This document shows positions 2 through 29,475 of a stretch of DNA of 29,475 bases, piece by piece. The notes beneath the pieces were generated by a model that was not told the origin of the DNA, ran no database searches, and worked only from the letters and a program-made list of their open reading frames with translations. How positions within the stretch are numbered: the stretch's first letter is position 1; the number at the start of each line of letters is the position of its first letter. This stretch comes from an uncultured virus (IMG/VR IMGVR_UViG_3300028920_000053) (taxonomy: Duplodnaviria > Heunggongvirae > Uroviricota > Caudoviricetes). The DNA is taken from the IMG/VR virus record IMGVR_UViG_3300028920_000053; one strand, given 5' to 3'. The position numbers were made by a program, and so were the translations under genes.

Positions 2-844
2 ATCCTGGACGACCCGGGCGATCCCGACCATGCGAGGCATCACTGCTTCGGGTGCGGCTTCGGAGGATACCCGGTCCACCTGGTCGAGGCGGTGCTGTAC
101 TCCCACGTCGACGACGAGGAGGAGCGCCGCGAGATGGCGCGCGAGTGGCTGGATGGGGCGCGCGAGGCGGCGGTCCCGCTGGAGGTGCGGGTCGAGGTGG
201 CGCCCACCCGGGCCCGTCGCGAGCTGCGGATGCCGGGAGGTGTCAAGTTCAAGCCCCTCGACAGGTGGCCGAAGCCGGCGCGGCAGTATGCCCTCGGACG
301 AGGACTCGAAGCGTGGCAGGTGACGAGGTGGGGACTCGGGTATGCGGCGGAGGGGCGGCTGCGCGGGCGTCTCGTCTTTCCTGTCCGAGATGGCGGGGGG
401 AAGCTGATCGGGTACACCGCCCGCAGCTTCACGGGGGCGCGCCGCAAGTACCTGGAGCCGAGCGAGGGAGACGGGGCGACGCCGGGCGCGGTGTTCGGCG
501 AGCAGCACTGGCCCCCTCCCGAGCGACGGAGGATCGTCGTCGCGGCGGAGGGGGCGCTCGACGTCCTGGCGGTCGAGCGGATGGTCCGGCTGCCGATCGC
601 GGGGCTGTACGGATCCAACCTGGCGAGCCGGCACATCCAGCGGCTCAGCACCTTCGGCGTCGTGGTGATGGCGAGCGATCCCGACGCAGCGGGCGATGGG
701 GTCGCTGGCGCCGTGTCGGAAGCGCTCGCTCGGTGGGTCGAGGTGCGGCGCCTGACGCTACCGACGGGGACCGACTGTGCTAGCCTGTGGGTCGAGGATC
801 GCGGGAGGTTCTGCGAGCTGCTGAGGAGCGTGCTCATTGGCTAA
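2..844 (+). CDS. dnaG: DnaG-type DNA primase (CHC2 zinc finger + Toprim), 5'-truncated by the window edge
   Basis: Frame is open from base 2 and reads ...HHCFGCGFGG (zinc-finger half) upstream of the tracked 92..844 ORF. It also has RLVFPVRD...IGYTAR...KYL, Toprim EGALD and DPDAAG. Confidence 0.88.
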   Translation: MLDDPGDPDHARHHCFGCGFGGYPVHLVEAVLYSHVDDEEERREMAREWLDGAREAAVPLEVRVEVAPTRARRELRMPGGVKFKPLDRWPKPARQYALGRGLEAWQVTRWGLGYAAEGRLRGRLVFPVRDGGGKLIGYTARSFTGARRKYLEPSEGDGATPGAVFGEQHWPPPERRRIVVAAEGALDVLAVERMVRLPIAGLYGSNLASRHIQRLSTFGVVVMASDPDAAGDGVAGAVSEALARWVEVRRLTLPTGTDCASLWVEDRGRFCELLRSVLIG

Positions 845-1085
845 CAAGCAGACGGGAATCGGGCTGATGTTCAGGCGCAGCCAGGACGATGCCGTGGGCG
901 AGCTCCGCGAGGTCATCGACCGGTGCGGCGGACGCATCACGCGGATGGCCGAGGACCTGCTCATCTCGCGCCGCCACTTGTACCGGCTGCTCGATCGTGC
1001 GAACCTCTGGGAAGAAGTCGAGGCTGCCCGCAAGCGAGCGAGGGCGCCCCTAGATCCGGAGACACGACAATGGACGAGCAGCTGA
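837..1085 (+). CDS. Small Fis-type helix-turn-helix DNA-binding protein
   Basis: IDRCGGRITRMAEDLLISRRHLYRLL fits the Fis/HTH_8 pattern. TTG start after AGGAG, overlapping the primase stop. Confidence 0.7.
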   Translation: MANKQTGIGLMFRRSQDDAVGELREVIDRCGGRITRMAEDLLISRRHLYRLLDRANLWEEVEAARKRARAPLDPETRQWTSS

Positions 1086-1367: not shown

Positions 1368-2981
1368 ATGCTAGACAGCACTCGATTTCCCGAGGCGACT
1401 CACCGCGCCGAGCTGGCCGGACAGGTTCTGTTCCTGACGGTCGATAGCTACGACGACGCGTGCGAGCGGCTCCGAAGTACCAACGAGGGAGTCCCCGTCA
1501 TCGTCCCGCTGGACCCCGAAGCAGATCGATCTGCTTCTGATGGGTCGACGCTCGACCCCACGGCGCTCATGCAGCCCGTGCCCAGAAACGACGAAGAGGA
1601 AGCCCCGACCCGCGACGCCGAGGCCGGCGAGGTGAGCGCAAGCGGCGCAGCCCGAAGCCAGACCGACGCCGACGCCGCAACCGCCGCCGGCTTCGCGCCG
1701 AAGCAGCCGCTGTATACACGCGGGACCCGGGTTGTGGAGTGGGGCGTCGAAAACGCCAAGACGAAGCGAGCCGAGTTCGACGCCATGCCCCCGATCGTCG
1801 AGGTGTGCGACGGGCTGATCGAGACGGTCGCCGCCGAGAAGCGGCGGGTGGTCGAGGTCCAGCTCGCCGGGACGCGCTTCGACTCGCAGGGCGGCATCGC
1901 GCTGCCCGGCACCGACGGCCCCGGCAAGGGCCGACGATACCAGCTCGACGACTACGCCTTCCGATCGCTCGTCTCCCGCATGGGGTTGAGCGGCGCGCGA
2001 TACCTCGCCGAGGACTGCTCGCCCAAGCTGCGAGCCATCAACATGAACCACCACTTCGCCGATGCCGAAGTTGACGACCAGCTGCGACTTCTGATGCGCC
2101 GCAACCCGAACGCGCGGGGCGGACATGAGGTCTTCGGGGTTGTCGGGTCCCGCTACCAAGAGGAGTTCCATGCGGGTCGGATCGCCGAGGGAGTCGCGAA
2201 GGCGATGGCAACGACCGAGGCCCGGGGATCGCTGACCTACGATGGCCGGCGCACGAAGATCCAGGCCCTGTTTCATTCGACGGTCGAGCCGGAAGAGTAC
2301 GTCGCGGGCGAGTTCTTCCGGGCCGGCATCCAGGTCCGAACCGACGACACCGGGGGCGGCTCGTGTATCGTCGAGGCTGTCGTCTGGCAGAACCTCTGCC
2401 TGAACCTGATCGTCATCGACCAGGCGGTCTCGGAGATCGCGAACATCATCCACGTCGGCGACCTGTCGAAACTGGAAGACCAGCTCGCTGAGGCGATGGT
2501 CAAGGCGCAGGCCGCCATCGGCCACTTCGTCAAGGCGTGGGGATATGCGACGCACGACGACGTCATCGCCGAGGCGCTGAAGGTCATCCACGACCAGGCA
2601 GCGAAGCGCGAGCTGGAAGCCGCGGCATCGGGCGCGGTTCCGATCGAGGAAGTCATCCCTGGGTTCTACGCCGCCATGAGAAAGCGCGAGCTGGTCCCGC
2701 TGAAGCGCCGCGATGTCCACAAGGACAAGGATACGAAGCGGCTGGTCGCGCCCGACCTCGTCGAGGCTTTCAAGGCCGACGCCAGCGCGGCCCGCGTCAA
2801 GGCGGGAGTCCCCCTTAGCCGGGCGGCCCTCGTCAACGCGGTGACCCGCCACGCCCACACGACGGCGGATGGCACGTTCGCCGAGGACGGGCTCGAAGCG
2901 GCGGCCGGCAAGCTGCTGTTCGGGCGCAACCGCCAGTCCCCTGCGCCGCTCCCCTACCAGGCAGTCGGGCTCGACATCTAA
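1368..2981 (+). CDS. DUF932-like phage/plasmid protein
   Basis: VFGVVGSRYQ, GIQVRTDDTGGGS and WQNLCLNL resemble the DUF932 motifs (V.drY, nshDGs, lvC.NG). SD GGAGGAG present. Confidence 0.6.
   Translation: MLDSTRFPEATHRAELAGQVLFLTVDSYDDACERLRSTNEGVPVIVPLDPEADRSASDGSTLDPTALMQPVPRNDEEEAPTRDAEAGEVSASGAARSQTDADAATAAGFAPKQPLYTRGTRVVEWGVENAKTKRAEFDAMPPIVEVCDGLIETVAAEKRRVVEVQLAGTRFDSQGGIALPGTDGPGKGRRYQLDDYAFRSLVSRMGLSGARYLAEDCSPKLRAINMNHHFADAEVDDQLRLLMRRNPNARGGHEVFGVVGSRYQEEFHAGRIAEGVAKAMATTEARGSLTYDGRRTKIQALFHSTVEPEEYVAGEFFRAGIQVRTDDTGGGSCIVEAVVWQNLCLNLIVIDQAVSEIANIIHVGDLSKLEDQLAEAMVKAQAAIGHFVKAWGYATHDDVIAEALKVIHDQAAKRELEAAASGAVPIEEVIPGFYAAMRKRELVPLKRRDVHKDKDTKRLVAPDLVEAFKADASAARVKAGVPLSRAALVNAVTRHAHTTADGTFAEDGLEAAAGKLLFGRNRQSPAPLPYQAVGLDI
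1518..1537. repeat. 20-bp perfect palindrome GAAGCAGATCGATCTGCTTC, copy 1 of 4
   Basis: Exact sequence, inside the CDS, encoding EADRSAS. Confidence 0.95.
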
Positions 2982-3330: not shown

Positions 3331-4006
3331 CAGCGTGATCGCGGAACTGAGCACCGAGCTGCTGAGCGGTCGTGTCGACTTCGGGCGGTTCGCTCGGGAG
3401 ACGGACGGCGAGTGGCGGGCGTTGGCCCGGATGCTACTTCGGCGATGGGATGCGCCCCCGAGCGCGGGCGAGGACGACCTGGTGCAGGAGATGCTGGTCG
3501 CGGCCTGGACGAGCATGCCGAGGTTCGACCCTTCGAGGGGACCGTCCCTCCACCGATTCGTCACTTACAACGCCGTGGACAAGGCCAAGAAGTGGCTCCA
3601 CAAGGCGAGGAAGGCCACGCGAGAGGGGGACAGGGGTCGGTCGCGGTATCCGGTGCCGGCGTCGATGCTGAGGAAGGACGAGCGGGCTGCCGTCGAATAC
3701 CTGGACCGCCGGAGGGTGAGCCCCGACGCCTCGCCGGAGGAGGCGATCGAACGAGAACAGGAGCGACGCGAGTCGCTGATCCGCGTGCTCGAGCAGATGG
3801 ACGACGACCTCGACCGCTTGCTGGTGCTCGCGGTCGTCGACGCGGAGGGCGACCTGGAATTGGCGGCCAGTCGGTTGTGGGAGGATTCGCGGATGCGCCT
3901 GGCGCTGCGGGGAGGGGATCGCGAGGACGTGAGGAAGAAGCTGAGGCGGGCGGTGGCCCGCGCTGCGGAAGCAGATCGATCTGCTTCCCGCGGCATCAAC
4001 AGATAG
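3314..4006 (+). CDS. Phage-encoded sigma-70/ECF-like RNA polymerase sigma factor
   Basis: Region-2 pattern EDDLVQEMLVAAWTSMPRFDPSRGPSLHRFV, followed by SPEE and a helical C-terminus. Confidence 0.8.
   Translation: MPSRRDSVIAELSTELLSGRVDFGRFARETDGEWRALARMLLRRWDAPPSAGEDDLVQEMLVAAWTSMPRFDPSRGPSLHRFVTYNAVDKAKKWLHKARKATREGDRGRSRYPVPASMLRKDERAAVEYLDRRRVSPDASPEEAIEREQERRESLIRVLEQMDDDLDRLLVLAVVDAEGDLELAASRLWEDSRMRLALRGGDREDVRKKLRRAVARAAEADRSASRGINR
3968..3987. repeat. 20-bp palindrome, copy 2 of 4 (extends to 22 bp)
   Basis: GGAAGCAGATCGATCTGCTTCC at 3967-3988, at the 3' end of the sigma gene, encoding EADRSAS. Confidence 0.95.
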
Positions 4007-7816: not shown

Positions 7817-7835
7817 GCGGCATAACGGACTCATG
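7817..7835 (+). promoter_or_regulatory. Putative leaderless promoter GCGGCATAAC-N6-ATG
   Basis: CATAAC at 7821-7826; ATG at 7833. Confidence 0.55.
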
Positions 7836-8552: not shown

Positions 8553-8556
8553 GCCC

Positions 8557-8576
8557 GAAGCAGATCGATCTGCTTC
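8557..8576. repeat. 20-bp palindrome, copy 3 of 4 (extends to 24 bp, intergenic)
   Basis: CCGAAGCAGATCGATCTGCTTCGG at 8555-8578. Confidence 0.95.
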
Positions 8577-8625
8577 GGAACCGGGAACGAAAACGGAAAC
8601 CAAACGGAACGAACGGAACAGAACG

Positions 8626-17707: not shown

Positions 17708-19426
17708 ATGGAGGAAGCCCTAGACCGAGCCGAGCGCCGCCCGCGCGGGAAGCGACGCAAGACCGAGAAGCGAGACGCGTACGCCCGGATGCTCGACCGC
17801 GAGCTGCCGAAGGAACCCCCAGGATCCTGCGGGCTGCAGCTCGCGTCCTTCTTCTGCGGGTGCGGCGGCGTGGACCTTGGCTTCCGATCGGCCGGGTTCG
17901 AGCTGGCATTCTCGAACGACATCTTCCAGTCGGCGGCCGTCAGCTTCGCCGAGAACCTTGGGCACGAGCCGATGGTCGAGGACATCCGGAACGTCGACGC
18001 CCGCCAGCTGGAAGGCATCGACGTCCTGACGGGCGGCTTCCCATGCGTGACCTTCTCGACGGCGGGAAGGCGGAAGGGGGTCGTCGACGACATCAACGGC
18101 AAGCTGTACCTCGAGCTGTGCCGGGTCATTCGCGAGGCGCGCCCGCGCTACTTCGTGGCCGAGAACGTCAAGGGGATCCTCAGTGCCAACGGCGGCGACG
18201 CGATGAAGCTGGTCCTCGCCGCCTTCTATCGGCTCGGGTATTACGTCTTCCACCAGCTGGTCGACATGTCGGGGCACGGCATCCCGCAGACCCGGCACCG
18301 CGTCATCTTCGTGGGCATCCGCGAGGACCAGTTCCGCGGCGCGTTCCGATTCCCGAAGCAGACCCACAAGGTCGGCAAGGGGGATCCGGCCTGGCTCCCG
18401 CCCCCAGTGTCGCTGCGCGCTGCGATCGGGGACCTCGGGGAGCCGGCGGTCGGGGTCCGCAACGCCGACTTCTTCAACCCGGTCCGCGACGCCGACGGGC
18501 CGTGCGTCGCGGTCACCGGGGCGGCGCCCGAGCTGAGCGTCCCGAACCACGACCAGGTCAGCGAGAAGCCCGCCTATGAGTTCGTGCAGACTCAGCGGGT
18601 GAATCGACGCAGCGGGCCCTCGATGACGATCGTCACGAAGGAGCAGGACGTCCAGTTCGTCCCGGCCAATCACGAGCGGAACGACGCGCCGCCTCCCAAG
18701 GTGGATCCGACTGCGGCCCATGCCGGCGGCGCCGCTCCCGGTGAGCAGCGGGGTAGGGTGCGCGATCCTCGGAAGCCGGGCGCGACTGTGGCGGGTGGTC
18801 CCGGGGACGCGCCGTTCATTCCGAACCAGGACCAGCGGACGACCTTCGGCGTCGGCGAGCGTTACCATGGCACCGGCCACAGGCAGACCAAGGCAGACGA
18901 GCCGTCTCCCTCGATCATCGGCAGCACGGGCGGCGGAACCCCGATGCTGCCCAACCAGGACCAGCGGAGCGAGGCATCGGAGGGCAAGGTCCACAACTGG
19001 ATGCAGCAGCGGCAGGCGTCCGACGACGAGCCGGTCCCATCGATCGTGTCGCGAGGTCCCCCTCCCTTCCTGCCCAACCAGGATCAGCGGACCGTGGCGG
19101 GGCCGACCGCATTCGGCTGTAGCGAGCGCGGAGCCGATGAGTCCGAGCCGAGCCCGACTATCGCCGGCGCCCATGCCGCGGGCGTGCCCTGGCATCCGAA
19201 CGACCTCGGCATCCGGAGGATGAGCGTCCGCGAGTGCGCCCGCGTCCAGTCGTTCCCCGACTGGTTCGCGTTCCACGGATCGATGAGCGAGTGCTACAAG
19301 CAGGTCGGGAACGCGGTCCCGCCGCTGTACGCCAAGCGGCTCGCCGAGGCCATCGCCGAGTACGACAGGAGGAGCAAGTGCCGTCCAAGAAGCCGAGGCA
19401 ACGGAAGCAGCAGAAGCCGTCGATAG
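17708..19426 (+). CDS. DNA (cytosine-5) methyltransferase with repeated target-recognition region
   Basis: Motif I FCGCGG, IV GGFPC, VI ENVKG, VIII QTRHR, IX RECARVQSFP, X KQVGNAVPP. TATCCT lies seven bases before the ATG. Confidence 0.95.
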   Translation: MEEALDRAERRPRGKRRKTEKRDAYARMLDRELPKEPPGSCGLQLASFFCGCGGVDLGFRSAGFELAFSNDIFQSAAVSFAENLGHEPMVEDIRNVDARQLEGIDVLTGGFPCVTFSTAGRRKGVVDDINGKLYLELCRVIREARPRYFVAENVKGILSANGGDAMKLVLAAFYRLGYYVFHQLVDMSGHGIPQTRHRVIFVGIREDQFRGAFRFPKQTHKVGKGDPAWLPPPVSLRAAIGDLGEPAVGVRNADFFNPVRDADGPCVAVTGAAPELSVPNHDQVSEKPAYEFVQTQRVNRRSGPSMTIVTKEQDVQFVPANHERNDAPPPKVDPTAAHAGGAAPGEQRGRVRDPRKPGATVAGGPGDAPFIPNQDQRTTFGVGERYHGTGHRQTKADEPSPSIIGSTGGGTPMLPNQDQRSEASEGKVHNWMQQRQASDDEPVPSIVSRGPPPFLPNQDQRTVAGPTAFGCSERGADESEPSPTIAGAHAAGVPWHPNDLGIRRMSVRECARVQSFPDWFAFHGSMSECYKQVGNAVPPLYAKRLAEAIAEYDRRSKCRPRSRGNGSSRSRR

Positions 19427-20109
19427 ACGCACCCGAGCCGATCATGCTGGAGCTCGCTTCGCTCAACGAGGCGACCTACAATCCGAGGTTCATCTCCGAC
19501 GAGGAGATGCGGAGCCTGAAGGCCAGCCTCCGCAAGCACGGGCTCGTCGAGTCGCTGGTCGTTCAGAAGAAGGGGACGGTCCTGATCGCCGGACACCAGC
19601 GACTCCGGGCGCTACGGGAGATCGCCGAGGCGGGCGAGGTCAGCGTCCCCGAGCGGGTCGCCTGCATCGTCCTCGACGTCAACGACTCGACGGCCAAGCA
19701 GCTGAACATCACGCTGAACCGCGTCGGCGGCGAGTTCGATCCTTTCAAGCTGGGCCAGGTCCTGGCGGACATCCATCATCGAAACGACTTTGACGAGGTG
19801 GCGATCGGATTCAATGGAGAGGAGATCGCCGAGCTGGTCAAGGCCGCGACGACGTCGCCCGAGGACCTGGCGAATGAGCTGGAGTCGTCGGTCGGCGACC
19901 TTGGCGTTTTCGCCAAGTCGGTGACCCTGACCGTGCCCTTCCCATCCGTGAAGGAGCGGGACGAGGCGAAGGTGCTGCTGGAGGAGCTCGCGGGCAAGGG
20001 GAAGCACGGCGAGTACATCCTGAAGCTGCTGCACCAGGCGAGGGCGATGGCCCGAGTCGGCAAGGCCAAGGTCGGCAAGCGGTCCAACGGCAAGCGGGCG
20101 AGGGCGTGA
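19378..20109 (+). CDS. ParB N-terminal (ParB/Srx) domain protein
   Basis: YNPR...LKASLRKHGLVESLVV...IAGHQRLRAL; GTG after AGGAGG, overlapping the MTase end. Confidence 0.85.
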   Translation: MPSKKPRQRKQQKPSIDAPEPIMLELASLNEATYNPRFISDEEMRSLKASLRKHGLVESLVVQKKGTVLIAGHQRLRALREIAEAGEVSVPERVACIVLDVNDSTAKQLNITLNRVGGEFDPFKLGQVLADIHHRNDFDEVAIGFNGEEIAELVKAATTSPEDLANELESSVGDLGVFAKSVTLTVPFPSVKERDEAKVLLEELAGKGKHGEYILKLLHQARAMARVGKAKVGKRSNGKRARA

Positions 20110-20579: not shown

Positions 20580-20879
20580 ATGGCTGACGCGGTGAAAGCG
20601 AGCAACGCGCTGGTGAGCATGGCGGGGTTCTATGCGGATGCCCTGGGCGAGCTGCACCAGAAAGACGAGGGGCAGCGGCAGCTGCTCGAGCAACTGAAGA
20701 AGCAGCTGGTCCAGCAGGCGGCGGCGCTGCAGGGGAGGGCCAGGCTGGTCGACGCCGTCGGCGCTTATCTGAAGCAGGTCGAGCAGCACGCGAGCGTCGC
20801 CCCCGACGAGTACAGGGAGCTGGTCGCGGCATGGCGCGCGGTCCAGGGAGAAACGCCGGAGCCCAAGGCAAAGGGGTAG
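20580..20879 (+). CDS. Hypothetical coiled-coil protein (99 aa)
   Basis: Abuts the previous stop; GAGG SD; Q/L-rich helix. Confidence 0.65.
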   Translation: MADAVKASNALVSMAGFYADALGELHQKDEGQRQLLEQLKKQLVQQAAALQGRARLVDAVGAYLKQVEQHASVAPDEYRELVAAWRAVQGETPEPKAKG

Positions 20880-20882
20880 CTG

Positions 20883-21197
20883 ATGGCCGAGATCCGATTC
20901 GACCCCGACAAGGCATGCGAGCTGCTCGAGACGGAGACGGTGTCGGACAGATCCAGGCGGTGGCGCCGGTTCAGGCCGCAGAACTTCCAGACCGTCGTCG
21001 GTGTGTTCGAGCCTCGGAAGTGGAACCACGAGCAGCGCACGGCCGAGCCGCAGCGATGGAAGGCGATGTGTCTGGTGTGCGGCCAGCGCTTCCAGGGCGA
21101 CTGCATGACGGGGGCCGTCCGCACCCACATCTGCCGATTCGGCGCGGTGCACGCCCACCGCGACCCGCTTCAACCGAAGGAGAGGAGAGAGGGATGA
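20883..21197 (+). CDS. Hypothetical protein with a possible C2H2-like Zn finger (104 aa)
   Basis: CLVCG...HICRFGAVHAH; ATGA overlap with the next gene. Confidence 0.65.
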   Translation: MAEIRFDPDKACELLETETVSDRSRRWRRFRPQNFQTVVGVFEPRKWNHEQRTAEPQRWKAMCLVCGQRFQGDCMTGAVRTHICRFGAVHAHRDPLQPKERREG

Positions 21198-22240
21198 TCA
21201 GCGACGCGATGCACAAGCGAGAGAGGTCCTTCATCGTGACGGCCTTTCGGCAGAGGCGGGGTCGCGAGCCGACCACCGCCGAGGCGCAGCTCCTACAGTC
21301 GGTGAGCTGGCTCGAAACCCGGTACGGGACCGCGTGGAAGTCGGACGCCGGACGCGAGTCGAAGAACCGCGGGGCGGTCCAGTACAAGACTCCCCGGCAG
21401 CTCGGGCTGACCCCGCCCTATCCCGACGTGTCGCCCGATGGCCGGGGCTTCCTCTACACCGACACCTCGCCGAATGACGATGGATCCTCGACCCCATATT
21501 CGGTTTACTTCCGGCGCTACGAAAGCGACGAGGAGGCAGTCCGCGACCTCGTTCAGCAGGTCTACGACAACCGACCGGCGGTGCTCCAGGCGGCATCCGA
21601 GGCCGATGTCCTCGGGTTCAGCCGGGCGATGTACGAGTCCCGATACTACGAGGGCTTCGGCAGGACGAAGGAAGAGAGGATCGCGAACCACCACAAGGCC
21701 GTGAAGGCCGCGCTCCGAAGGATCGCGAATGCGCTCGGCGAGCCGCTCCCGGATGGCTCGATGCCGCTACCCAGGACGATCGAGCGCGGCAGCTCCGGGG
21801 TCGTCGTCAAGGACTGGCAGGCGGTCGTCGACCTGTGGCTCGCCGGGATCGAGGAGTCCGGCGATGAACTGAGCGGCGCCGCATGGAGGGCCTGGGTCGG
21901 TGAGTGCGAGGAGAGGGGCGCGGCCCCCTATTCGCTCGCGAGTGACGGCTTGTTCGGCGAGATGACCGACCTGGCGACCAGGGCGTGGCAGGAGGCGCAC
22001 GGCCTGAAAGTCGATGGAATCGTCGGCCCGAACACCTGGGGCGCCGCCCAGAAGGGGACGGCCCCGACCGAGCCGCCCCCGATTCCGGACGAGGACCTGC
22101 TGGAGAAGGCTGCGGCGGGGGACCTGCCGGACGGCGTCGACCTGCGCAGGATCGTCTCCCTGCTGGCGGCCCGAGTCCTCGACTTGGAGAAGCGACGCAA
22201 GAAAACCGGCCGGAAAGCGACTCCACCGACGCGCCTGTGA
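21194..22240 (+). CDS. Endolysin-like peptidoglycan hydrolase (GH73/FlgJ-like catalytic domain + PG_binding_1)
   Basis: WLETRYG (catalytic Glu), FRRYESDEEAVRD, AMYESRYY; PG-binding DGLFGEMT...WQEAHGLKVDGIVGPNTW. Confidence 0.8.
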   Translation: MISDAMHKRERSFIVTAFRQRRGREPTTAEAQLLQSVSWLETRYGTAWKSDAGRESKNRGAVQYKTPRQLGLTPPYPDVSPDGRGFLYTDTSPNDDGSSTPYSVYFRRYESDEEAVRDLVQQVYDNRPAVLQAASEADVLGFSRAMYESRYYEGFGRTKEERIANHHKAVKAALRRIANALGEPLPDGSMPLPRTIERGSSGVVVKDWQAVVDLWLAGIEESGDELSGAAWRAWVGECEERGAAPYSLASDGLFGEMTDLATRAWQEAHGLKVDGIVGPNTWGAAQKGTAPTEPPPIPDEDLLEKAAAGDLPDGVDLRRIVSLLAARVLDLEKRRKKTGRKATPPTRL

Positions 22241-22521
22241 AACAGTTCGGACTATTCGATCCCGCTATTCCACCGACGCGCCGGTGGAACAGTCCGAACT
22301 GTTTGGGGCCCCTATTCCACCGACGCGTCTGAGAAACAGTCCGAACTGTTTGGGGCCACTGTTTCTCAGACGGCTCGACAGAAACAGTCCGAACTGTTTG
22401 GGCTCGCTATTCCACCGACGCGCCGGTGGAACAGTCCGAACTGTTTGGGGCCCCTATTTCACAGGCGCATCGGTGAAACAGTCCGAACTGTTTGGTCTCG
22501 CTATTCTACCGACGCGCCGTG
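22223..22521. repeat. Array A: ~6.5 tandem copies of a 47-bp palindromic unit CTRTTY-N16-RAACAG-TCCGAA-CTGTTT-N7
   Basis: AACAG recurs at 22241, 22288, 22335, 22383, 22430 and 22477. Confidence 0.95.
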
Positions 22522-22526
22522 GTTTC

Positions 22527-22545
22527 GCCGCATAACCGGGCCATG
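22527..22545 (+). promoter_or_regulatory. Putative leaderless promoter GCCGCATAAC-N6-ATG
   Basis: CATAAC at 22531-22536; ATG at 22543. Confidence 0.55.
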
Positions 22546-24477
22546 GGAATCGTTCAAGACACCTTCGGCGAGGGAGGACACCTCGTTCAGCAGCTCGACG
22601 ACTATCAGGTTCGGGACGGCCAGGTCCGGCTCGCCGAGCGAGTCCTGGCGACGATGGAGGAGGGGGGCTCGCTGCTCGCCGAGGCCCCGACGGGCACGGG
22701 CAAGTCGCTCGCCTACGCGCTGCCCGCCGTGTGGCACGCCGTCCAGAACGGACGCAAGGCGGTGCTCGTCACCGCGAACATCGCGCTGCAGGACCAGCTC
22801 GCGAAGAAGGACCTCCCGCTGCTGGCCGCGGCGCTGCCCTTCGAGTTCAACTTCCAGGTCCTGAAGGGCGTCGCGAACTATCTCTGCCTGGACGTGATGG
22901 ATGAGTCGAATGGCTCGCCGTCGCTCAACTTCGACCGGCGCGAGGAGCACGAGCAGTGGGATGCGATCAAGGCGTGGACGGAGACGACCCCGAGCGGCGA
23001 CATCGCCGAGCTCCCCTTCGAGCCTCTGCACCGGGTCCGCGAGCGGTTCACGGTTTCCAGCGACGACTGCCTCGGTGTTAGCTGCCCGTTCCGCGACGGA
23101 TGCCACCTGCTCTCTGCCAGGCGCAAGGCGGCCGACGCCGACCTGGTCGTGACGAACTACCACCTGTTCTTCGCCGACCTCGCGATCAAGGCGGGGGACG
23201 GCCAGGGAGTCCTCCCGCCGTATCAGCATGTCGTGTTCGACGAGGGCCACAAGATCGCGGACATCGTGCGGGACTTCTTCGGGTGGCGGGTGAGCAGGCC
23301 CGGGATCAAGCAGGCGACCTCCCAGCTGAAGAAGGGAAGGCGCGGGGCGAAGGGGATCGACCGCGAGCTGTACGACAGGATCGAGCTGGAGGCCGACTTC
23401 TTCTTCGGGAAGCTGGCGCAGTTCTACCACTCCGACGACTATGCGGTCCGCCTGCGGGGCCCGGGCGAGTACGATGCCGAGCAGCTCGCCGCGTCGCTCG
23501 ACGAGGCGGCATCGACGCTGCAGGTCGCGGCCGACCAAGGCAGGTTCAAGGCGGACCGAAAGGCCGAGCTACGCAACGGGGCGAACCGCTGCGCGGCAGC
23601 CGCCTCGCACCTGCGCGAGGGGCAGGAGCTGCAGGACGAGACCCGGGCCTACTTCCTGGACGAGAGGAACGACCGGGTGGCGGTCGCGATGAAGCCGGTC
23701 GACGTCGCGCCGATCCTACGGCAGCACGTCTTCGAGTCCGAGAAGGTGAGGACGACGGTCGTCACCAGTGCGACGCTCAGCACGGGCGGCAGCTCGGGCT
23801 TCGACTTCATCGCCAAGCAGCTCGGCGCCGAGTCCTCGGCGGACATCGAGGTGGAGTCGCCGTTCGACTTCTCCGGGGTGACGATGGTCGTTCCTCGAGG
23901 TATCGCCGTCCCGAATGCGAAGGCGTTCCCGTCCGACGTCGCCGAGGCGCTGGTCGAGACGGTCGGGCTGGCGAGGGGCCGTACGCTCGGGTTGTTCACG
24001 AGCTATCGGGTGATGAAGGTCGCCGCCCAGGCGCTGCGCGGAGCCGGGCTCCCATACCGGATCTTGGTCCAGGGAGAGGGCTCGCGGATGCAGCTCGTCC
24101 GCGACTTCAAGGAAGATGTCCCTAGCGTGCTGCTCGGGGTCGAGTCGTTCTGGCAGGGGCTCGACTGCCCCGGCGAGACGCTATCCTGCGTGTTCATCGA
24201 CAAGCTGCCCTTCGCGGTGCCCGACGACCCGGTCCTGTCCATGCTGGAGCAGCGGGAGGGCTCGCGGTTCTGGAAGCGGCACTCGCTTCCCCACGCGATC
24301 ATCGCGTTCAAGCAGGGCTTCGGTCGGCTCGTGCGGACGGTCAGCGACGCGGGCGCGGTCGTCTGCTGCGATCGGAGGCTGGTCGACAAGCCCTATGGCA
24401 AGTCGTTCTTCCGGGCCTTGCCCGAAGGCGTCCGCGTCGTCCGGCAGCTGGAGGAGGTGGCGAATGCGACCAGGTGA
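22543..24477 (+). CDS. dinG: DinG/YoaA-family (XPD-like) ATP-dependent helicase with Fe-S cluster
   Basis: Q motif RDGQ, APTGTGKS, NYLCL...CLGVSCPFRDGC, DEGH, SATL, WQGLD, KQGFGRLVR. Confidence 0.95.
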   Translation: MGIVQDTFGEGGHLVQQLDDYQVRDGQVRLAERVLATMEEGGSLLAEAPTGTGKSLAYALPAVWHAVQNGRKAVLVTANIALQDQLAKKDLPLLAAALPFEFNFQVLKGVANYLCLDVMDESNGSPSLNFDRREEHEQWDAIKAWTETTPSGDIAELPFEPLHRVRERFTVSSDDCLGVSCPFRDGCHLLSARRKAADADLVVTNYHLFFADLAIKAGDGQGVLPPYQHVVFDEGHKIADIVRDFFGWRVSRPGIKQATSQLKKGRRGAKGIDRELYDRIELEADFFFGKLAQFYHSDDYAVRLRGPGEYDAEQLAASLDEAASTLQVAADQGRFKADRKAELRNGANRCAAAASHLREGQELQDETRAYFLDERNDRVAVAMKPVDVAPILRQHVFESEKVRTTVVTSATLSTGGSSGFDFIAKQLGAESSADIEVESPFDFSGVTMVVPRGIAVPNAKAFPSDVAEALVETVGLARGRTLGLFTSYRVMKVAAQALRGAGLPYRILVQGEGSRMQLVRDFKEDVPSVLLGVESFWQGLDCPGETLSCVFIDKLPFAVPDDPVLSMLEQREGSRFWKRHSLPHAIIAFKQGFGRLVRTVSDAGAVVCCDRRLVDKPYGKSFFRALPEGVRVVRQLEEVANATR

Positions 24478-25681: not shown

Positions 25682-25962
25682 AGAAGAGAGCCAAGAAGCC
25701 CGAAGCAGATCGATCTGCTTCCGTCTACATCCCGCCCGTGCGGGTCGAGGTCCACGCCCCCGAACCCTACGACCACGGCGGGGCGACCGAGAGATGCCAC
25801 CATTGCGAGGAGGTCTACTCCGTGCGGTTCGACTCATTCGCCCCGCCGACGCCGACGCTCCGGGAAGCGCTGCGGAGCCTGGAGCAGGTCCTCGTGGGGA
25901 GCGTCGGGCTTCCGATGCGAGGTGAGGTGGTCGTCTCGGTGACCCGCCGAAAGTCTCGCTAG
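25678..25962 (+). CDS. Hypothetical protein (94 aa)
   Basis: GTGA-coupled start after AAGGAG; contains palindrome copy 4. Confidence 0.6.
   Translation: MKKRAKKPEADRSASVYIPPVRVEVHAPEPYDHGGATERCHHCEEVYSVRFDSFAPPTPTLREALRSLEQVLVGSVGLPMRGEVVVSVTRRKSR
25702..25721. repeat. 20-bp palindrome, copy 4 of 4
   Basis: Exact sequence, inside the CDS, encoding EADRSAS. Confidence 0.95.
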
Positions 25963-26120
25963 GACGCGCCAGGAGCGGCTTTCAGGGAAGATGGGATAGG
26001 TGGGCCGCAGGCGACGAAAGCGCGCCAGGGCGTCGGTTTGGGGCCTTCCCGTGGGTCGGAAATCAAACGACAATCGACGTCGCCCCCCTTGGCGTAACCC
26101 CTCGGAATGACTATAATAAT
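25961..26120 (+). promoter_or_regulatory. Duplicated promoter module, copy 2 (TTGGCG 26089 - N17 - TATAAT 26112)
   Basis: Consensus -10 in an AT-rich patch; homologous to 14997-15160. Confidence 0.85.
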
Positions 26121-26123
26121 AAT

Positions 26124-26531
26124 AGATAAGAGAGAGGGGCCCCGGAGAGGGGACCCACCCGGAAAGCCCGGTAAGCCGCTGCGAGACGGCGCTCGGGCGA
26201 AGCCGGCAACAGGGGTCACGCGCTGCCCCGTCAAGATAAGAGGCGCGGCCCGGCGGGGCTCACAACGCGCGGCAGCCGGCGCGGGGCGACAGGAAGCCCC
26301 AAACCTGGCCGCGGCACCCGGAGGCCCCGGTCGGGGCCCCGGGCCTCTGAGCGCAAGCCGCGCACACTCCCCTCCCCCTGGTGGCAAAGCAGGTCCAGGC
26401 AGCGAGCAGCGAGTGGCCGAGCAGCGACAGGCGGACCCCGAGACCCCGACCAGAGTCCCCGGACTCAGTGAGCGGTTGCAGCTCGCCGGCGGGATTGGCC
26501 CGGCGGAAAGTAGCTCCCGCAGAAAGTCGAG
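26124..26531 (+). ncRNA. Candidate ~400-nt structured RNA / long 5' leader
   Basis: No credible CDS between a consensus promoter and ATG 26532; several complementary segment pairs. Family not recognised. Confidence 0.4.
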
Positions 26532-27457: not shown

Positions 27458-27721
27458 ATGGCTGTCATCTTCCGAAACCAACTACGGGACGAGCTGGACC
27501 GCATCTTCGCCAAGGGTCAGGCCCGACGCGAGGCTGCCGCCGATGAACAGATTCGGGCCCTGCGCCCGACCGACATCGACTGGCTCGAACCAGACGAGCG
27601 GGCCCGCGCCCACGAAATCCAGCTCGCCCTCGTCAAGCTGGGCCCGACCCGTGAGGAGATCCGGGCGAGGGTCGCGGCCCGACGCGCTGCGAGGAAGGCC
27701 GCCCGCGAGTCGGCAGAATAA
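27458..27721 (+). CDS. Hypothetical helical protein (87 aa)
   Basis: ATG one base after the previous stop. Confidence 0.6.
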   Translation: MAVIFRNQLRDELDRIFAKGQARREAAADEQIRALRPTDIDWLEPDERARAHEIQLALVKLGPTREEIRARVAARRAARKAARESAE

Positions 27722-28005
27722 GGCCGGCAAACAGTGGCCCTCTATTCTGCCGAGCCGTCGGTGGTTAGGGGGCCACTGTTTGGGCTCGCTATTCTGCGGC
27801 GCCGCCTGAGAAACAGTTCGGACTGTTTGGGCTCGCTATTCTGCGGCGCCGCCTGAGAAACAGTTCGGACTGTTTGGGCTCGCTATTTCACCGGCGCGTC
27901 GGTGAAATAGTTCGGACTGTTTGGGGCCCGCTATTCTGCCGAGCCGTCGGTGGTTAGGGGGCCACTGTTTGGGCTCGCTATTCTGCCGAGCCGCCGGTGA
28001 ATAGC
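27710..28005. repeat. Array B: ~6 tandem copies of the same 47-bp unit family as array A
   Basis: CTATT recurs at 27742, 27789, 27836, 27883, 27931 and 27978; shares CTGTTTGGGCTCGCTATT with array A. Confidence 0.95.
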
Positions 28006-28011
28006 GGCTGG

Positions 28012-28040
28012 TTGACGCCGTGTCCCCGGGAGGGCACCAT
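28012..28040 (+). promoter_or_regulatory. Putative promoter TTGACG-N17-CACCAT for the tRNA
   Basis: Near-consensus -35 and weak -10, directly after array B. Confidence 0.4.
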
Positions 28041-28086
28041 TCCGGGCATGAACCACTGACCGCAAGACCGTCTTAGGGCGGGCATC

Positions 28087-28123
28087 AAGAGGGCCTGGAA
28101 ACCGCGCGTTTCCGGGCCCTCTT
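28087..28123 (+). other. 16-bp stem-loop abutting the tRNA 5' end
   Basis: AAGAGGGCCTGGAAAC-CGCGC-GTTTCCGGGCCCTCTT (one G-U pair). Confidence 0.75.
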
Positions 28124-28197
28124 GCGTCGGTAGCTCAATGGCAGAGCATCCCGGTTGGTGACCGGGGGGGTAGCGGGTTCGACCCCCGCCCGACGCG
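28124..28197 (+). tRNA. tRNA-Thr(GGT), atypical anticodon arm, CCA not encoded
   Basis: Acceptor GCGTCGG/CCGACGC, D arm GCTC-AATGGCA-GAGC, anticodon arm TCCCGG-TTGGTGA-CCGGGG, T arm GCGGG-TTCGACC-CCCGC. Confidence 0.85.
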
Positions 28198-28234
28198 CGA
28201 TCCCGATTCGGTGCCGCAATGTCACGCCGCGATC

Positions 28235-28654: not shown

Positions 28655-28665
28655 TCCCGCGCATG
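28646..28665 (+). promoter_or_regulatory. Putative leaderless promoter GCGGCATAAT-N7-ATG
   Basis: CATAAT at 28650-28655; ATG at 28663. Confidence 0.55.
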
Positions 28666-29058
28666 GACAAGAAGCCGAAGCGGCCGAAGGCCGTGACCAA
28701 GCGGGAAGACACCAAGCGACCGCAGGCCGTGACCAAGCGGGAAGACACGAAGCGGGCCCAGGCCGTCATCGACGGCCAGGCCCACACGTCCACCGTCGAA
28801 TGTTTCGAGGTGCTGCTGCCGCGCGTCGGCGAGCGCCTACGATCCGTCGCCGGGAGCGAGAAAGGAGACGCGACTCTGGACCGCTGTCGGGCCAGAGTCG
28901 AGGCCGTGATCGCCGAGCGGAAGGTGCAGGCGCCGCCGCTGCCCGAGAAGTGCGACATCGGCGCTGTCCGGCTCGCGCTTCTCCTGGTCGTGGATGAGCA
29001 GTTCGCGGCCAGCATCGGGAAGACCTTCCAGCTGGATCCGGGAAGGTTCAATCTCTGA
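28663..29058 (+). CDS. Hypothetical protein (131 aa) with an N-terminal 12-aa repeat
   Basis: KRPKAVTKREDT x2.5 (36-bp repeat, 28678-28767). Confidence 0.65.
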   Translation: MDKKPKRPKAVTKREDTKRPQAVTKREDTKRAQAVIDGQAHTSTVECFEVLLPRVGERLRSVAGSEKGDATLDRCRARVEAVIAERKVQAPPLPEKCDIGAVRLALLLVVDEQFAASIGKTFQLDPGRFNL

Positions 29059-29357
29059 TGCACAGCCACATCATCCTGAAGAAGAAAGGCTACACGGCGA
29101 CGCTGTACCTCGGCGACCGCCGCAAGCTGGAGCTAATCGGGCCCGAGACGGAGATCCGCGATGTCGCCGCCGGGGTCCTGGTCCAGGTGGCATCCAAGGT
29201 GAAGGACGGCACGATCCCGCTCCCGCACGGCATGTCGTGGGAGTTCGAGGAAACCGGCCGACGCCGACAGCTTGCGGATCCGGATAGCGACGAACAGCGG
29301 GCCCCTTGGCAGGGGGAAGTCGACGAGCTGGCGCCCGACGAAACGACGACCAAGTAG
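29058..29357 (+). CDS. Hypothetical protein (99 aa)
   Basis: TGATG overlap with the previous gene. Confidence 0.65.
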   Translation: MHSHIILKKKGYTATLYLGDRRKLELIGPETEIRDVAAGVLVQVASKVKDGTIPLPHGMSWEFEETGRRRQLADPDSDEQRAPWQGEVDELAPDETTTK

Positions 29358-29475
29358 TCCCCGAGACACAGCCTCGGTCCCTCGCGGTCCCCGAGACACG
29401 GCCGCGGTCCCCGAGACACAGCCTCGGTCCCTCGCGGTCCCCGAGACACGGCCGCGGTCCCCGAGACACAGCCTC
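29357..29475. repeat. Perfect 50-bp tandem repeat of 10-bp blocks, running off the window end
   Basis: CCGAGACACA GCCTCGGTCC CTCGCGGTCC CCGAGACACG GCCGCGGTCC starting at 29361, 29411 and 29461 (partial). Confidence 0.95.

What the first reader, a model, noticed from the sequence alone, without database searches (positions are those of the whole stretch)
22223..22521. Two dispersed arrays of a 47-bp nested-palindrome unit (second array at 27710-28005)
Seen: the unit is CTRTTY + 16-nt variable core + RAAYAG + 6 nt + CTGTTT + 7 nt. This gives a 28-bp imperfect palindrome (e.g. CTATTCCACCGACGCGCCGGTGGAACAG) overlapping an 18-bp palindrome (AAACAG-TCCGAA-CTGTTT). Each array has about six units with a period of 47 bp (one 48-bp unit each). 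Both arrays begin at the stop codon of the upstream gene and end just before a putative promoter. Inference: a cis-acting system of unknown type, such as multiple origins/enhancers, protein-binding or recombination arrays, or an array processed into small RNAs. The architecture recalls baculovirus hr elements (dispersed arrays of ~28-30-bp imperfect palindromes); this is an analogy only.
Basis: partly seen in the sequence, partly recalled or inferred. Interest (0 to 1): 0.85.

Follow-up and report, generated by a model that had tools for sequence, protein, structure and literature searches.

The report
Paired 47-bp palindrome arrays beside phage promoters
Two real, non-coding runs of a 47-base repeat bracket the helicase module of an uncultured marine-sediment phage; they look like multi-site landing pads for a DNA-binding protein at two promoters, but their function is untested and no relative carries them.

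Summary
Two head-to-tail arrays of period 47 bp lie at 22218-22521 and 27695-28004. Each has five complete units plus a degenerate first and a truncated last unit. Each starts on the stop codon of the gene before it.

The window is the replication module of a ~91.6-kb, 68% GC phage from marine-sediment metagenomes. Array 1 ends 9 bp before a CATAAC box that sits 6 nt before the ATG of a YoaA/DinG-type helicase. Array 2 ends 7 bp before a weak TTGACG-N17-CACCAT candidate, upstream of tRNA-Thr.

- **Conservation:** it is position-specific. ACTGTTTGG and CT.TT are invariant in 10 of 10 units.
- **Palindromes:** the arms of the 28-bp palindrome show no unit-specific covariation. Only 2-3 of 7 distinct units fold better than shuffles.
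- **Known RNA families:** no Rfam family matches.

This favours conserved DNA recognition motifs over RNA or DNA hairpins.

Best reading (confidence about 0.4): protein-binding operator, enhancer or roadblock arrays at two promoters, possibly also acting in replication control. The binding protein is unknown.

The unit was found in none of the collection scans, the 42 helicase-relative loci or the five complete related genomes. Function is therefore not supported by comparison. Moderate interest; a new variant of a known kind.

The parts
22218..22521 (+). Array 1: degenerate unit U0, five complete 47/48-bp units U1-U5, truncated U6
   Evidence: TRF; unit table; alignment
27695..28004 (+). Array 2: degenerate unit V0, five complete 47/48-bp units V1-V5, truncated V6
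   Evidence: TRF; unit table; alignment
27883..27910 (.). Best example of the 28-bp palindrome (11-bp arms, 6-bp centre, perfect): CTATTTCACCG-GCGCGT-CGGTGAAATAG
22334..22351 (.). Example of the 18-bp palindrome AAACAG-TCCGAA-CTGTTT; its left arm is the right arm of the 28-bp palindrome
22321..22377 (.). Inter-unit inverted repeat (20-nt arms, 90% complementary): the right arm of U2 pairs with the left arm of U3, so matching arms are shuffled between units
20831..22240 (+). Upstream gene (469 aa, PG_binding_1, endolysin-like). Its last codons and TGA stop (22238-22240) lie inside unit U0
22531..22536 (+). CATAAC box 6 nt before the helicase ATG; one of four GCATAAY-N6/7-ATG gene starts; probable -10 element of a leaderless transcript (inferred)
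   Evidence: 3 matches of CATAAY-N6-ATG against 0.01 expected
22543..24477 (+). YoaA/DinG-type Fe-S helicase gene (644 aa) directly downstream of array 1
27458..27721 (+). Upstream gene of array 2 (87 aa, helical hairpin, no family). Its TAA stop (27719-27721) lies inside unit V0
28012..28040 (+). Weak sigma-70-like candidate TTGACG-N17-CACCAT, 7 bp after array 2 (8 of 12 consensus positions; below the scan's threshold)
   Evidence: read; not reported
28086..28124 (+). 17-bp-stem hairpin abutting the tRNA
28124..28198 (+). tRNA-Thr (GGT), first gene after array 2

Best explanation
The two arrays are non-coding, cis-acting DNA. Each is a phased cluster of one recognition motif: the core hexamer CTRTTY and its complement RAAYAG, three per unit in the order forward, reverse, forward, with an invariant block ACTGTTTGG-N6/7-CTATT. 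I read them as multi-site landing pads for a sequence-specific DNA-binding protein that binds as a dimer or higher oligomer.

Each array fills the whole gap between the end of one transcription unit and the promoter of the next: the YoaA/DinG-type helicase gene for array 1 and the tRNA-Thr unit for array 2. The truncated last unit of array 1 lies where a -35 element would be. The bound protein therefore most likely sets the activity of these two promoters, as operator, upstream enhancer or transcriptional roadblock. Because the arrays bracket the helicase module in the same orientation, it could also pair them by looping or 'handcuffing'.

**Shown:** the arrays and their anatomy, motif-level conservation, absence of covariation, and position relative to stop codons and promoter-like elements.

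**Inferred:** that a protein binds, which protein it is, and what binding does.
For: 1. Conservation is by position, not by unit. ACTGTTTGG and CT.TT are invariant in 10 of 10 complete units across both arrays, while a 16-nt core and a 4-5-nt linker vary. A 9-column invariant run has p about 0.002 under column shuffling.
2. The inverted arms keep their sequence rather than their pairing. For the 28-bp palindrome, 79.2% of cells pair against 77.4% when right arms are dealt out among units (149 of 500 shuffles as high). U2, V2 and V3 combine non-matching arms. U2's right arm matches U3's left arm instead.
3. Single-unit folds are uneven. As ssDNA, only V4 (z -3.6), V1 (-2.8) and U1 (-1.8) beat shuffles. 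U2, U3, U5 and V2 score -0.3 to -1.3.
4. The centre of the 18-bp palindrome is flipped between arrays (TCCGAA against TTCGGA). This is neutral for a symmetric dimer on duplex DNA but changes an RNA loop.
5. Position. Array 1 ends 9 bp before CATAAC-N6-ATG of the helicase. That box recurs at 4 gene starts in the window and is far above chance (3 against 0.01). Array 2 ends 7 bp before TTGACG.
6. The motifs occur only in the arrays, so any binder acts at these two loci within the window.
7. No RNA family matches.
8. Known precedents exist for arrays of short motifs in mixed orientation over promoters: pSM19035 parS/omega sites (PMC9499535, passages read) and sopC, 12 x 43 bp each with a 16-bp inverted repeat (PMC3177203, abstract).
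Against: - No binding protein is identified. Pfam finds no DNA-binding domain in the roughly 10 small ORFs between the arrays.
- The one clear small HTH protein (837-1085, HTH_8) has homologues in 5 of 5 relatives that lack the arrays.
- No relative carries the unit, so function is not supported by conservation.
- Identical units within an array (U1=U4, V2=V3, V1=V5) show recent duplication, as in a drifting minisatellite.
- The promoter assignments are inferred from motifs only. The consensus scan found nothing at either array end.
- The covariation test has little power, with only 7 distinct units.
- Both arrays share the orientation of transcription, which also suits an RNA role.
- A 47-bp period (about 4.5 helical turns) puts successive units on opposite faces of the helix, unlike sopC.
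Confidence: 0.4

Rival explanations
1. Replication origin or copy-control iterons. The arrays bind an initiator. The promoter-proximal array acts as origin and auto-operator, and the second array acts as a control locus that pairs with it. This would resemble iteron plasmids with handcuffing, or, as I recall it, phage P4 ori plus crr.
For: - The arrays lie in the replication module: primase, PolB, UvsX, SbcC, helicase.
- Two arrays in the same orientation bracket the helicase and about 10 small ORFs.
- Handcuffing of iteron sets is a known mechanism (PMC6312765, passage read).
- T4 oriE carries evenly spaced direct repeats (PMC3016281, passages read).
Against: - No AT-rich unwinding stretch lies beside either array. 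The arrays are 57% and 62% GC, and the lowest-GC 60-bp windows are at 26.07 kb, 1.3 kb and 4.0 kb.
- Cumulative GC skew is monotonic in the window and in 5 complete relatives.
- No initiator-like gene was recognised.
- The 47-bp composite unit is unlike 17-22-bp iterons.
- Even for T4 oriE the review says no link between the iterons and origin activity has been established (PMC3016281).
- The arrays are absent from the relatives examined.
Confidence: 0.15
2. RNA-level element. The arrays are transcribed with the upstream gene and act as a run of hairpins. Possible roles are a 3'-end stabiliser, a U-tract-less terminator or insulator, a processing site, or a tandem-repeat RNA cut into ~47-nt units, such as a mimic of a type III antitoxin (ToxI-like) or another RNA decoy.
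For: - Both arrays start on a stop codon and have the orientation of all neighbouring genes.
- Whole arrays fold far better than shuffles on either strand (z -7.1 to -10.1).
- The geometry (5-6 tandem units of about 47 nt) is, from recall, in the range of type III antitoxin arrays.
- The only A-rich motif of the unit (GAAACAG) could serve as a nuclease site. This is speculation.
Against: - No Rfam family matches at E up to 1, apart from chance miRNA-type rows.
- There is no covariation.
- 4 of 7 distinct units fold no better than shuffles.
- The stems of the 18-bp palindrome are invariant in sequence rather than co-varying.
- Its loop is reverse-complemented between arrays.
- The two hairpins of a unit share six bases and exclude each other.
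- There is no U-tract. Terminator-like hits numbered 6 against 2.6 +/- 1.6 in shuffles, and only two weak ones touch the arrays.
- No ToxN-like or other defence-related protein lies next to the arrays.
Confidence: 0.15
3. Neutral or selfish minisatellite. A single palindromic site (operator or hairpin) was amplified by slippage or unequal crossing-over, copied to a second intergenic gap, and is tolerated without a function of its own. This would resemble intergenic minisatellites of the MIRU or REP/BIME kind.
For: - Identical units occur within each array: U1=U4, V2=V3, V1=V5.
- Array 2 has a 94-bp higher-order period.
- Arms are shuffled between units.
- One assembly contig in run X3 skips 189 bp between the identical units V1 and V5. 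This may be a real length variant or an assembly collapse.
- The arrays are absent from every relative examined.
- A third, unrelated tandem array starts at the next stop codon, 29357. This genome region accumulates such arrays.
Against: - Position-specific invariance is shared by both arrays (p about 0.002), although the arrays have diverged elsewhere.
- Both arrays keep the same mixture of unit and linker types.
- Both stop within 10 bp of a promoter-like element.
- The 19-mer core is not a dispersed repeat of any of the 185,579 species genomes scanned: 13 single chance matches and no array.
- All units are head-to-tail, unlike alternating REPs.
Confidence: 0.15
4. ParB/parS-type loading or centromere array. 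The arms of the 28-bp palindrome are parS half-sites split by 10 bp. They would recruit the phage ParB/KorB/Noc-like protein, or the host ParB, for partition or long-range silencing.
For: - All 4 exact matches to a parS half-site (GTGNAACA) in the window are right arms in array 1. Of 42 matches with at most 1 mismatch, 14 lie in the arrays, which make up 2% of the window. The consensus string was confirmed to be in print in 6 papers (search listing only).
- A ParB-like gene lies 2.1 kb upstream (19378-20109).
- Its model (pLDDT 90.8) matches KorB (Z 11.8, rmsd 3.4, 130 residues aligned) and Noc (Z 9.2, 155 aligned). Residues 100-158 overlay the DNA-binding helices of Spo0J in its parS complex (Z 5.6, 55 aligned).
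Against: - The half-sites are 10 bp apart, not adjacent. There is no contiguous parS in the window: the best 16-mers have 4 mismatches.
- Most array-2 units lack the CAC/GTG part.
- The invariant block is ACTGTTTGG...CTATT, not the parS-like part.
- No ParA was found among the ORFs scanned.
- ParB-like homologues carry only PF02195, and distant ones are fused to methyltransferases.
- The protein has clear homologues in relatives G002 and G005, which lack the arrays but carry a different dispersed palindrome that suits a ParB/KorB-type site better.
- The repeated units are not independent matches.
Confidence: 0.07

Closest known systems
pSM19035 parS / omega-repressor sites (arrays of 7-10 heptads WATCACW in direct and inverted orientation overlapping three promoters; PMC9499535, passages read)
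   Same: Several dispersed arrays on one replicon. Each is a run of a short motif in mixed orientation and sits on or against a promoter. Many protomers are expected to bind cooperatively, and the sites double as operators.
   Different: - Contiguous 7-bp units, against a 47-bp composite unit with three hexamers and a variable core.
- A known RHH binder and a ParA partner, against none identified here.
- A plasmid, against a ~92-kb phage with a lytic-type replication module.
F-plasmid sopC centromere (12 direct repeats of 43 bp, each with a 16-bp inverted repeat bound by SopB; PMC3177203, abstract)
   Same: Head-to-tail repeats of about 45 bp, each carrying a palindrome that is the presumed protein site.
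   Different: - One array next to sopAB, against two arrays here.
- Nearly identical units, against a variable core here.
- 43 bp keeps sites on one face of the helix; 47 bp alternates faces.
- No ParA was found here.
Iteron origins and control loci with handcuffing (PMC6312765, passage read); P1 incC/incA, F incB/incC and P4 ori/crr (recalled)
   Same: Two sets of repeats flank replication genes. The promoter-proximal set could auto-regulate, and the two sets could pair.
   Different: - Iterons are 17-22-bp direct repeats beside an AT-rich unwinding element and an initiator gene.
- Neither was found here, and there is no skew signal.
[quoted passage not shown]
   Same: A repeat cluster in a lytic phage's replication region whose role is unproven.
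   Different: - 12-nt direct repeats conserved in syntenic regions of related phages.
- Here the units are 47 bp with nested palindromes and are not found in relatives.
Baculovirus hr elements
   Same: Dispersed arrays of imperfect palindromes of about 28-30 bp that act in cis, as enhancers and putative origins.
   Different: They belong to a eukaryotic virus with another binding protein (IE-1) and have no sequence relation. This is an analogy of architecture only.
REP/BIME and MIRU-type intergenic repeats (recalled)
   Same: Extragenic palindromic units in tandem, starting at the end of a gene.
   Different: - Those are dispersed in tens to hundreds of copies in a host chromosome, and REPs alternate in orientation.
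- Here there are two head-to-tail arrays in a phage, and the core 19-mer forms no array in the 185,579 species genomes scanned.

Membership tests
ParABS-type centromere array (sopC / parS) | Tandem or clustered repeats each carrying an inverted-repeat protein site | tested here: met
   47-bp units with 28-bp and 18-bp palindromes
ParABS-type centromere array (sopC / parS) | Cognate ParA ATPase and ParB gene next to the site | tested here: not met
   No ParA-type family among the 31 + 24 ORFs scanned. A ParB-like gene lies 2.1 kb upstream, but only 29.5 kb of a ~91.6-kb genome was visible.
ParABS-type centromere array (sopC / parS) | ParB with a DNA-binding helix-turn-helix domain after the N-terminal domain | tested here: inconclusive
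   Pfam finds only ParB_N. The profile aligns weakly through the HTH region of 4umk. The model overlays KorB at residues 18-159 (Z 11.8) and the Spo0J DNA-binding helices at 100-158 (Z 5.6).
ParABS-type centromere array (sopC / parS) | Contiguous 16-bp parS palindrome | tested here: not met
   The best 16-mers in the window have 4 mismatches and lie outside the arrays. The half-sites in the arrays are split by 10 bp.
Iteron-type replication origin | Short direct repeats (17-22 bp) at about two-turn spacing | tested here: not met
   The unit is 47/48 bp, with three hexamers at spacings of 22, 12 and 13 bp in mixed orientation.
Iteron-type replication origin | Adjacent AT-rich unwinding element | tested here: not met
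   The arrays are 57% and 62% GC. The lowest-GC 60-bp windows are at 26.07, 1.3 and 4.0 kb.
Iteron-type replication origin | Origin activity, or a turn in GC skew | tested here: inconclusive
   Skew is monotonic in the window and in 5 relatives. However, nearly all genes share one strand, which masks a replication signal. Activity cannot be tested here.
CRISPR array | Identical repeats separated by unique spacers of similar length | tested here: not met
   The variable part is only 16 nt, recurs between units (U1=U4, V1=V5, V2=V3) and is complementary to its flanks. A true CRISPR-like array in relative G004 provides the contrast.
CRISPR array | Associated cas genes (the helicase as Csf4/CasDinG) | tested here: not met
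   NCBIfam: YoaA 548 bits against cas_csf4 67 bits (cut-off 400). The PADLOC typeIV_DinG 'associated' model scores 368 bits, but no other Cas family was hit among the 16 neighbouring proteins.
Type III toxin-antitoxin (ToxI-like RNA array) | Tandem RNA repeats followed by a ToxN-family endoribonuclease gene | tested here: not met
   No PADLOC hit of that kind among the 16 flanking proteins. The genes downstream are a helicase and a tRNA.
Type III toxin-antitoxin (ToxI-like RNA array) | Match to a described antitoxin RNA family | tested here: not met
   Rfam scans of both arrays at E up to 1 list none.
REP/BIME | Many dispersed copies in a bacterial chromosome | tested here: not met
   The exact core 19-mer gave 13 single matches in 185,579 species genomes and 28 in metagenome contigs. 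None carries the flanking motif or an array. The host itself is unknown.
REP/BIME | REPs alternate in orientation within a cluster | tested here: not met
   All units are head-to-tail.
Intrinsic terminator | G+C-rich hairpin followed by a U-tract | tested here: not met
   There is no T-run after the hairpins. The scan found 6 sites against 2.6 +/- 1.6 in shuffles, and two weak ones touch the arrays.
Protein-coding repeat | Period a multiple of three with coding-type composition | tested here: not met
   The period is 47/48 bp. GC3 is flat (0.57-0.65 in all three frames) across 27721-27990.

The most novel reading that the evidence does not exclude
A bacteriophage counterpart of baculovirus hr elements. 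The paired arrays would act as both enhancer and replication-control elements. A still unknown phage protein would oligomerise on the roughly 18 hexamers of each array and activate the two adjacent promoters: a '-10-only' leaderless helicase promoter and the tRNA promoter. By looping array 1 to array 2 it would isolate the 5.5-kb helicase module as a topological domain used to start or meter replication.
Probability: 0.1. Interest if true: 0.8.

Novelty: new variant of a known kind. Interest (0 to 1): 0.42.

Why it matters
If the arrays bind a protein, they give a compact natural example of many-site, mixed-orientation operator arrays in an uncultured, high-GC phage lineage. They would also provide a way to find its regulator and its promoters, including a candidate class of '-10-only' leaderless promoters (GCATAAY-N6-ATG).

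The unit's overlapping palindromes, which share one arm, are an unusual design that could toggle between two binding modes.

If the arrays are only a minisatellite, they still mark a region of this genome that builds tandem arrays at successive stop codons. That would be useful for strain typing in sediment metagenomes.

Either way the finding does not yet bear on a long-standing open question.

Tried and rejected
**Searches for the arrays elsewhere**
- Own genome: none is held.
- Exact-motif scans of viral contigs (1 locus, a coding chance match), metagenome contigs (28 loci) and species genomes (13 loci). All are single matches without the flanking motif.
- A looser pattern across the unit boundary in viral contigs gave only single matches among the 80 rows listed.
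- Close relatives by helicase: none in viral contigs with the single protein, and none among isolated phages by DNA or protein (at most 31.5% identity).
- With a 26-sequence alignment, 42 loci were found, at most 48% identical. None has the array upstream of the helicase.
- Five complete relatives were fetched. Their tandem repeats are mostly coding, with periods that are multiples of 9. None resembles the unit.
- An nhmmer profile of the unit gave 0 hits in relatives.
- ParB-like relatives: 80 loci, best 47% identity, and no array.

**RNA and expression**
- Rfam: no family.
- Sequencing runs: no RNA holder is listed.
- The DNA contigs of 4 runs break at the arrays, as assemblers do at repeats. 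They say nothing on copy number except one ambiguous 189-bp skip.

**Candidate binders**
- Pfam at E up to 1 on 24 ORFs found no DNA-binding domain between the arrays.
- The Atlas look-up of the 87-aa protein before array 2 gave only helical-hairpin look-alikes.

**Other checks**
- CRISPR link through DinG: rejected.
- Sigma-70 promoter and terminator scans gave nothing above chance at the arrays.
- GC skew showed no origin signal.
- Earlier notes of this scan: none on this genome or sequence. A word search gave only unrelated arrays in other genomes.
- One literature search for similar phage arrays returned nothing relevant. This is no proof that nothing is in print.
Full report
**What is there.** Tandem Repeats Finder reports two arrays of period 47: 22222-22519 (6.3 copies, score 340) and 27742-28004 (5.6 copies, score 215).

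Laid out unit by unit, each array has three parts:
- a degenerate first unit (U0 at 22218-22264, V0 at 27695-27741);
- five complete units of 47 bp, one of them 48 bp;
- a truncated last unit (U6 from 22501, V6 at 27978-28004).

- CTRTTY-N16-RAAYAG occurs 7 times, with N17 once and N15 once.
- RAAYAG-N6-CTRTTY occurs 9 times.
- None of these patterns occurs outside the arrays.
- V1 and V5 are a variant type that lacks RAAYAG and the 18-bp palindrome.

The 19-mer core gives 18 strand-matches against 0.02 expected. The 47-bp period, flat GC3 across array 2 and the absence of any family hit make the arrays non-coding.

**Context.** The window is one strand of a phage replication module. It encodes:
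- a DnaG-type primase;
- a sigma-70 region-2 protein;
- a family-B polymerase;
- a UvsX/RecA-like recombinase;
- an SbcC-like ATPase;
- a PDDEXK nuclease;
- a C5 methylase;
- a ParB-like protein;
- a peptidoglycan-binding lysin-like protein;
- a YoaA/DinG-type helicase;
- tRNA-Thr.

The helicase is found letter for letter on a 91,617-bp contig. Near-identical DNA is held by three marine-sediment metagenome runs of three studies, one of which may be the source of this DNA. The best helicase relatives are only about 50% identical, and many sit on contigs of about 92 kb.

**Position of the arrays.** The stop codons of the upstream genes (TGA 22238-22240, TAA 27719-27721) lie inside the first degenerate units. 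In a 68% GC genome stop codons are rare and the repeat holds the most AT-rich words. An ORF that runs into the array will therefore end there, so this is expected rather than special.

Array 1 ends 9 bp before CATAAC (22531-22536), which lies 6 nt before the helicase ATG. That start codon is fixed by the homologue alignment. The same box, GCATAAY-N6/7-ATG, precedes four genes: PolB, the gene at 7833, the helicase, and the gene at 28663. CATAAY-N6-ATG occurs 3 times against 0.01 expected.

The geometry is that of a -10 hexamer with the transcript starting at the A of the ATG, so I infer leaderless '-10-only' promoters. The truncated unit U6 then covers the -35 position.

Array 2 ends 7 bp before TTGACG-N17-CACCAT (28012-28040). 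This is a weak candidate that the consensus scan did not call. It is followed by a 17-bp-stem hairpin (28086-28124) and the tRNA.

**DNA motif or hairpin?** The alignment of the 10 complete units (7 distinct) shows ACTGTTTGG and CT.TT invariant in all. Variation is confined to a 16-nt core and a short linker. The invariant run is unlikely by chance (p about 0.002).

The 28-bp palindrome pairs in 79.2% of cells. The figure is 77.4% when right arms are dealt out among units, and 149 of 500 shuffles do as well. The complementarity therefore comes from a shared consensus of inverted half-sites, not from compensatory change within a unit.

Several further points fit this reading:
- Some units combine non-matching arms (U2, V2, V3), and U2's right arm matches U3's left arm across the unit boundary.
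- The 18-bp palindrome does not vary in its stems.
- Its centre is reverse-complemented between the arrays.
- As single strands only 2-3 of 7 distinct units fold clearly better than shuffles. The strong whole-array z-scores on both strands follow from repeated inverted motifs.
- No Rfam family matches.

I read this as conservation of a recognition sequence on duplex DNA. There are three copies of CTRTTY per unit (forward, reverse, forward; spacings 22, 12 and 13 bp), and the middle copy is shared by two overlapping palindromes. The test has low power with only 7 distinct units, and an RNA role is not excluded.

**Who binds?** This remains unknown.
- Pfam finds no DNA-binding domain in the small ORFs between the arrays.
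- The 87-aa protein before array 2 looks like a helical hairpin.
- A small Fis-type HTH protein (837-1085, HTH_8, 24.1 bits against a cut-off of 22) has homologues in 5 of 5 complete relatives, which lack the arrays.

The palindrome arms resemble parS half-sites. All 4 exact GTGNAACA matches in the window are right arms of array 1. The consensus string occurs in 6 papers, of which I saw only the search listing.

The ParB-like protein models with pLDDT 90.8. Its matches are:
- KorB: Z 11.8, rmsd 3.4, 130 residues aligned;
- Noc: Z 9.2, 155 aligned;
- Spo0J DNA-binding helices (model residues 100-158): Z 5.6.

Several points weigh against a parS role:
- the half-sites are 10 bp apart;
- most array-2 units lack them;
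- the invariant block lies elsewhere;
- no ParA was found.

The ParB-like protein also has a more natural partner, the dispersed palindrome described under 'Seen in passing'.

**Comparison with relatives.** Nothing like the unit was found:
- in three collection scans with the exact core;
- in a looser scan, as far as its 80 listed rows go;
- in 42 helicase-relative loci;
- in five complete 91-94-kb relatives;
- by a profile search of the relatives' loci and of every locus fetched after them.

In several relatives the gap before the helicase holds other perfect palindromes, so that position seems to be a regulatory spot in this phage group. The arrays themselves are lineage-specific. Because no close relative exists in the collections, neither conservation nor turnover can be judged.

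| Reading | Confidence |
|---|---|
| Multi-site protein-binding arrays that control the two adjacent promoters, perhaps also pairing with each other | about 0.4 |
| Iteron-type origin or control locus | 0.15 |
| RNA hairpin or processed-RNA element | 0.15 |
| Neutral minisatellite grown from one palindromic site | 0.15 |
| ParB/parS-type loading array | 0.07 |

The closest known systems are the pSM19035 omega/parS arrays over promoters (PMC9499535, passages read), sopC (PMC3177203, abstract) and iteron sets with handcuffing (PMC6312765, passage read). T4 oriE shows that even in a model phage such repeats can remain unexplained (PMC3016281, passages read).

The array is not a member of any of these families by sequence. 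Several defining features were tested and not met; they are listed in the membership table. I rate it a new variant of a known kind, of moderate interest.

**Seen in passing.**
- **A dispersed perfect palindrome with a constant GATCGATC centre and genome-specific arms.** It occurs 4 times in the window, 14 times in G002 and 17 times in G005, and is absent from G001, G003 and G004. Clear homologues of the ParB-like protein occur in G002 and G005, a weak one in G004, and none in G001 or G003. Within the 14-kb loci the association is imperfect: 2 loci have both, 1 has only the protein, 3 have only the palindrome, and 36 have neither.
- **A CRISPR-like array** in relative G004.
- **A third tandem array** at the end of the window.

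Noticed in passing
window 1518-1537, 3967-3988, 8555-8578, 25702-25721; G002 (L090-L094), G005 (L100-L104), L051, L065, L084: A dispersed perfect 20-24-bp palindrome with a constant GATCGATC centre and genome-specific arms.
- Window: GAAGCA-GATCGATC-TGCTTC, 4 copies.
- G002: TCGGAA-...-TTCCGA, 14 copies.
- G005: ACGGAT-...-ATCCGT, 17 copies.
- G001, G003, G004: none.

In G005/L047 and L051 a copy sits just upstream of the helicase, where this phage has array 1.

Clear homologues of the ParB/KorB-like protein occur in G002 and G005, a weak one in G004, and none in G001 or G003. This suggests a protein-site pair of the KorB/Noc kind. Within the 14-kb loci the link is imperfect: 2 both, 1 protein only, 3 palindrome only, 36 neither.
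   Followed up: partly
L046 2300-3100 = G004 35992-36688 (IMGVR_UViG_3300032893_000018): A CRISPR-like array in a 93.9-kb relative phage, about 3 kb upstream of its helicase. It has 10 identical 36-nt repeats (CCATCAACAGCCGCGCGAGGCTTCGAGTATCGCGAC) plus one degenerate copy, separated by unique spacers of 26-44 nt. I did not look for cas genes.
   Followed up: partly
window 29357-29475: A third, unrelated tandem array. Its core is GGTCCCCGAGACAC at alternating 30- and 20-bp spacing, giving a perfect 50-bp period. It starts on the TAG stop of ORF 29058-29357 and runs off the end of the window.
   Followed up: no
window 5308, 7821, 22531, 28650: GCATAAY-N6/7-ATG lies directly before four gene starts: PolB, the 239-aa gene, the helicase and the 131-aa gene. 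The fixed N6 form occurs 3 times against 0.01 expected. The geometry is that of a -10 box for leaderless mRNA. In two cases the TAA inside the box is also the stop codon of the gene before. The motif is rare in five relatives, at 0-2 per genome. One G002 copy lies right after a GATCGATC palindrome.
   Followed up: partly
window 26061-26140 and 1281-1320: The most AT-rich spot of the window holds a near-consensus promoter, TTGGCG-N17-TATAAT, followed by AATAATAGATAAG. The same CCTTGGCGT word precedes TAATGT at 1286-1316.
   Followed up: no
window 837-1085: A small Fis-type HTH protein of about 72-82 aa lies just after the primase gene. Pfam hits are HTH_8 (E 2.9e-5, above cut-off) and SoPB_HTH (weak, E 0.0012). 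Homologues occur in 5 of 5 complete relatives.
   Followed up: partly
window 22543-24477: The helicase scores 368 bits on PADLOC's 'typeIV_DinG, CAS-IV-A associated' model. NCBIfam, however, places it with YoaA (548 bits) and not Csf4 (67 bits against a cut-off of 400). The PADLOC label is misleading here.
   Followed up: yes
L051 4891-4964: Three and a half tandem copies of a 21-bp unit, CATGGCGCACCATTGTTGACA, each holding a short palindrome and a TTGACA word. They lie 1 kb upstream of the helicase in another relative.
   Followed up: no
window 28678-28766: A 36-bp tandem repeat inside a gene encodes the repeated peptide KRPKAVTKREDT in the 131-aa protein that starts at 28663.
   Followed up: no
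G003, G004, G005 (for example L096 6670-6905, L109 13537-13731): Relatives carry long coding repeats with periods of 9, 18, 27 or 54 bp, the sort collagen-like Gly-X-Y tracts would give. I did not examine them further.
   Followed up: no
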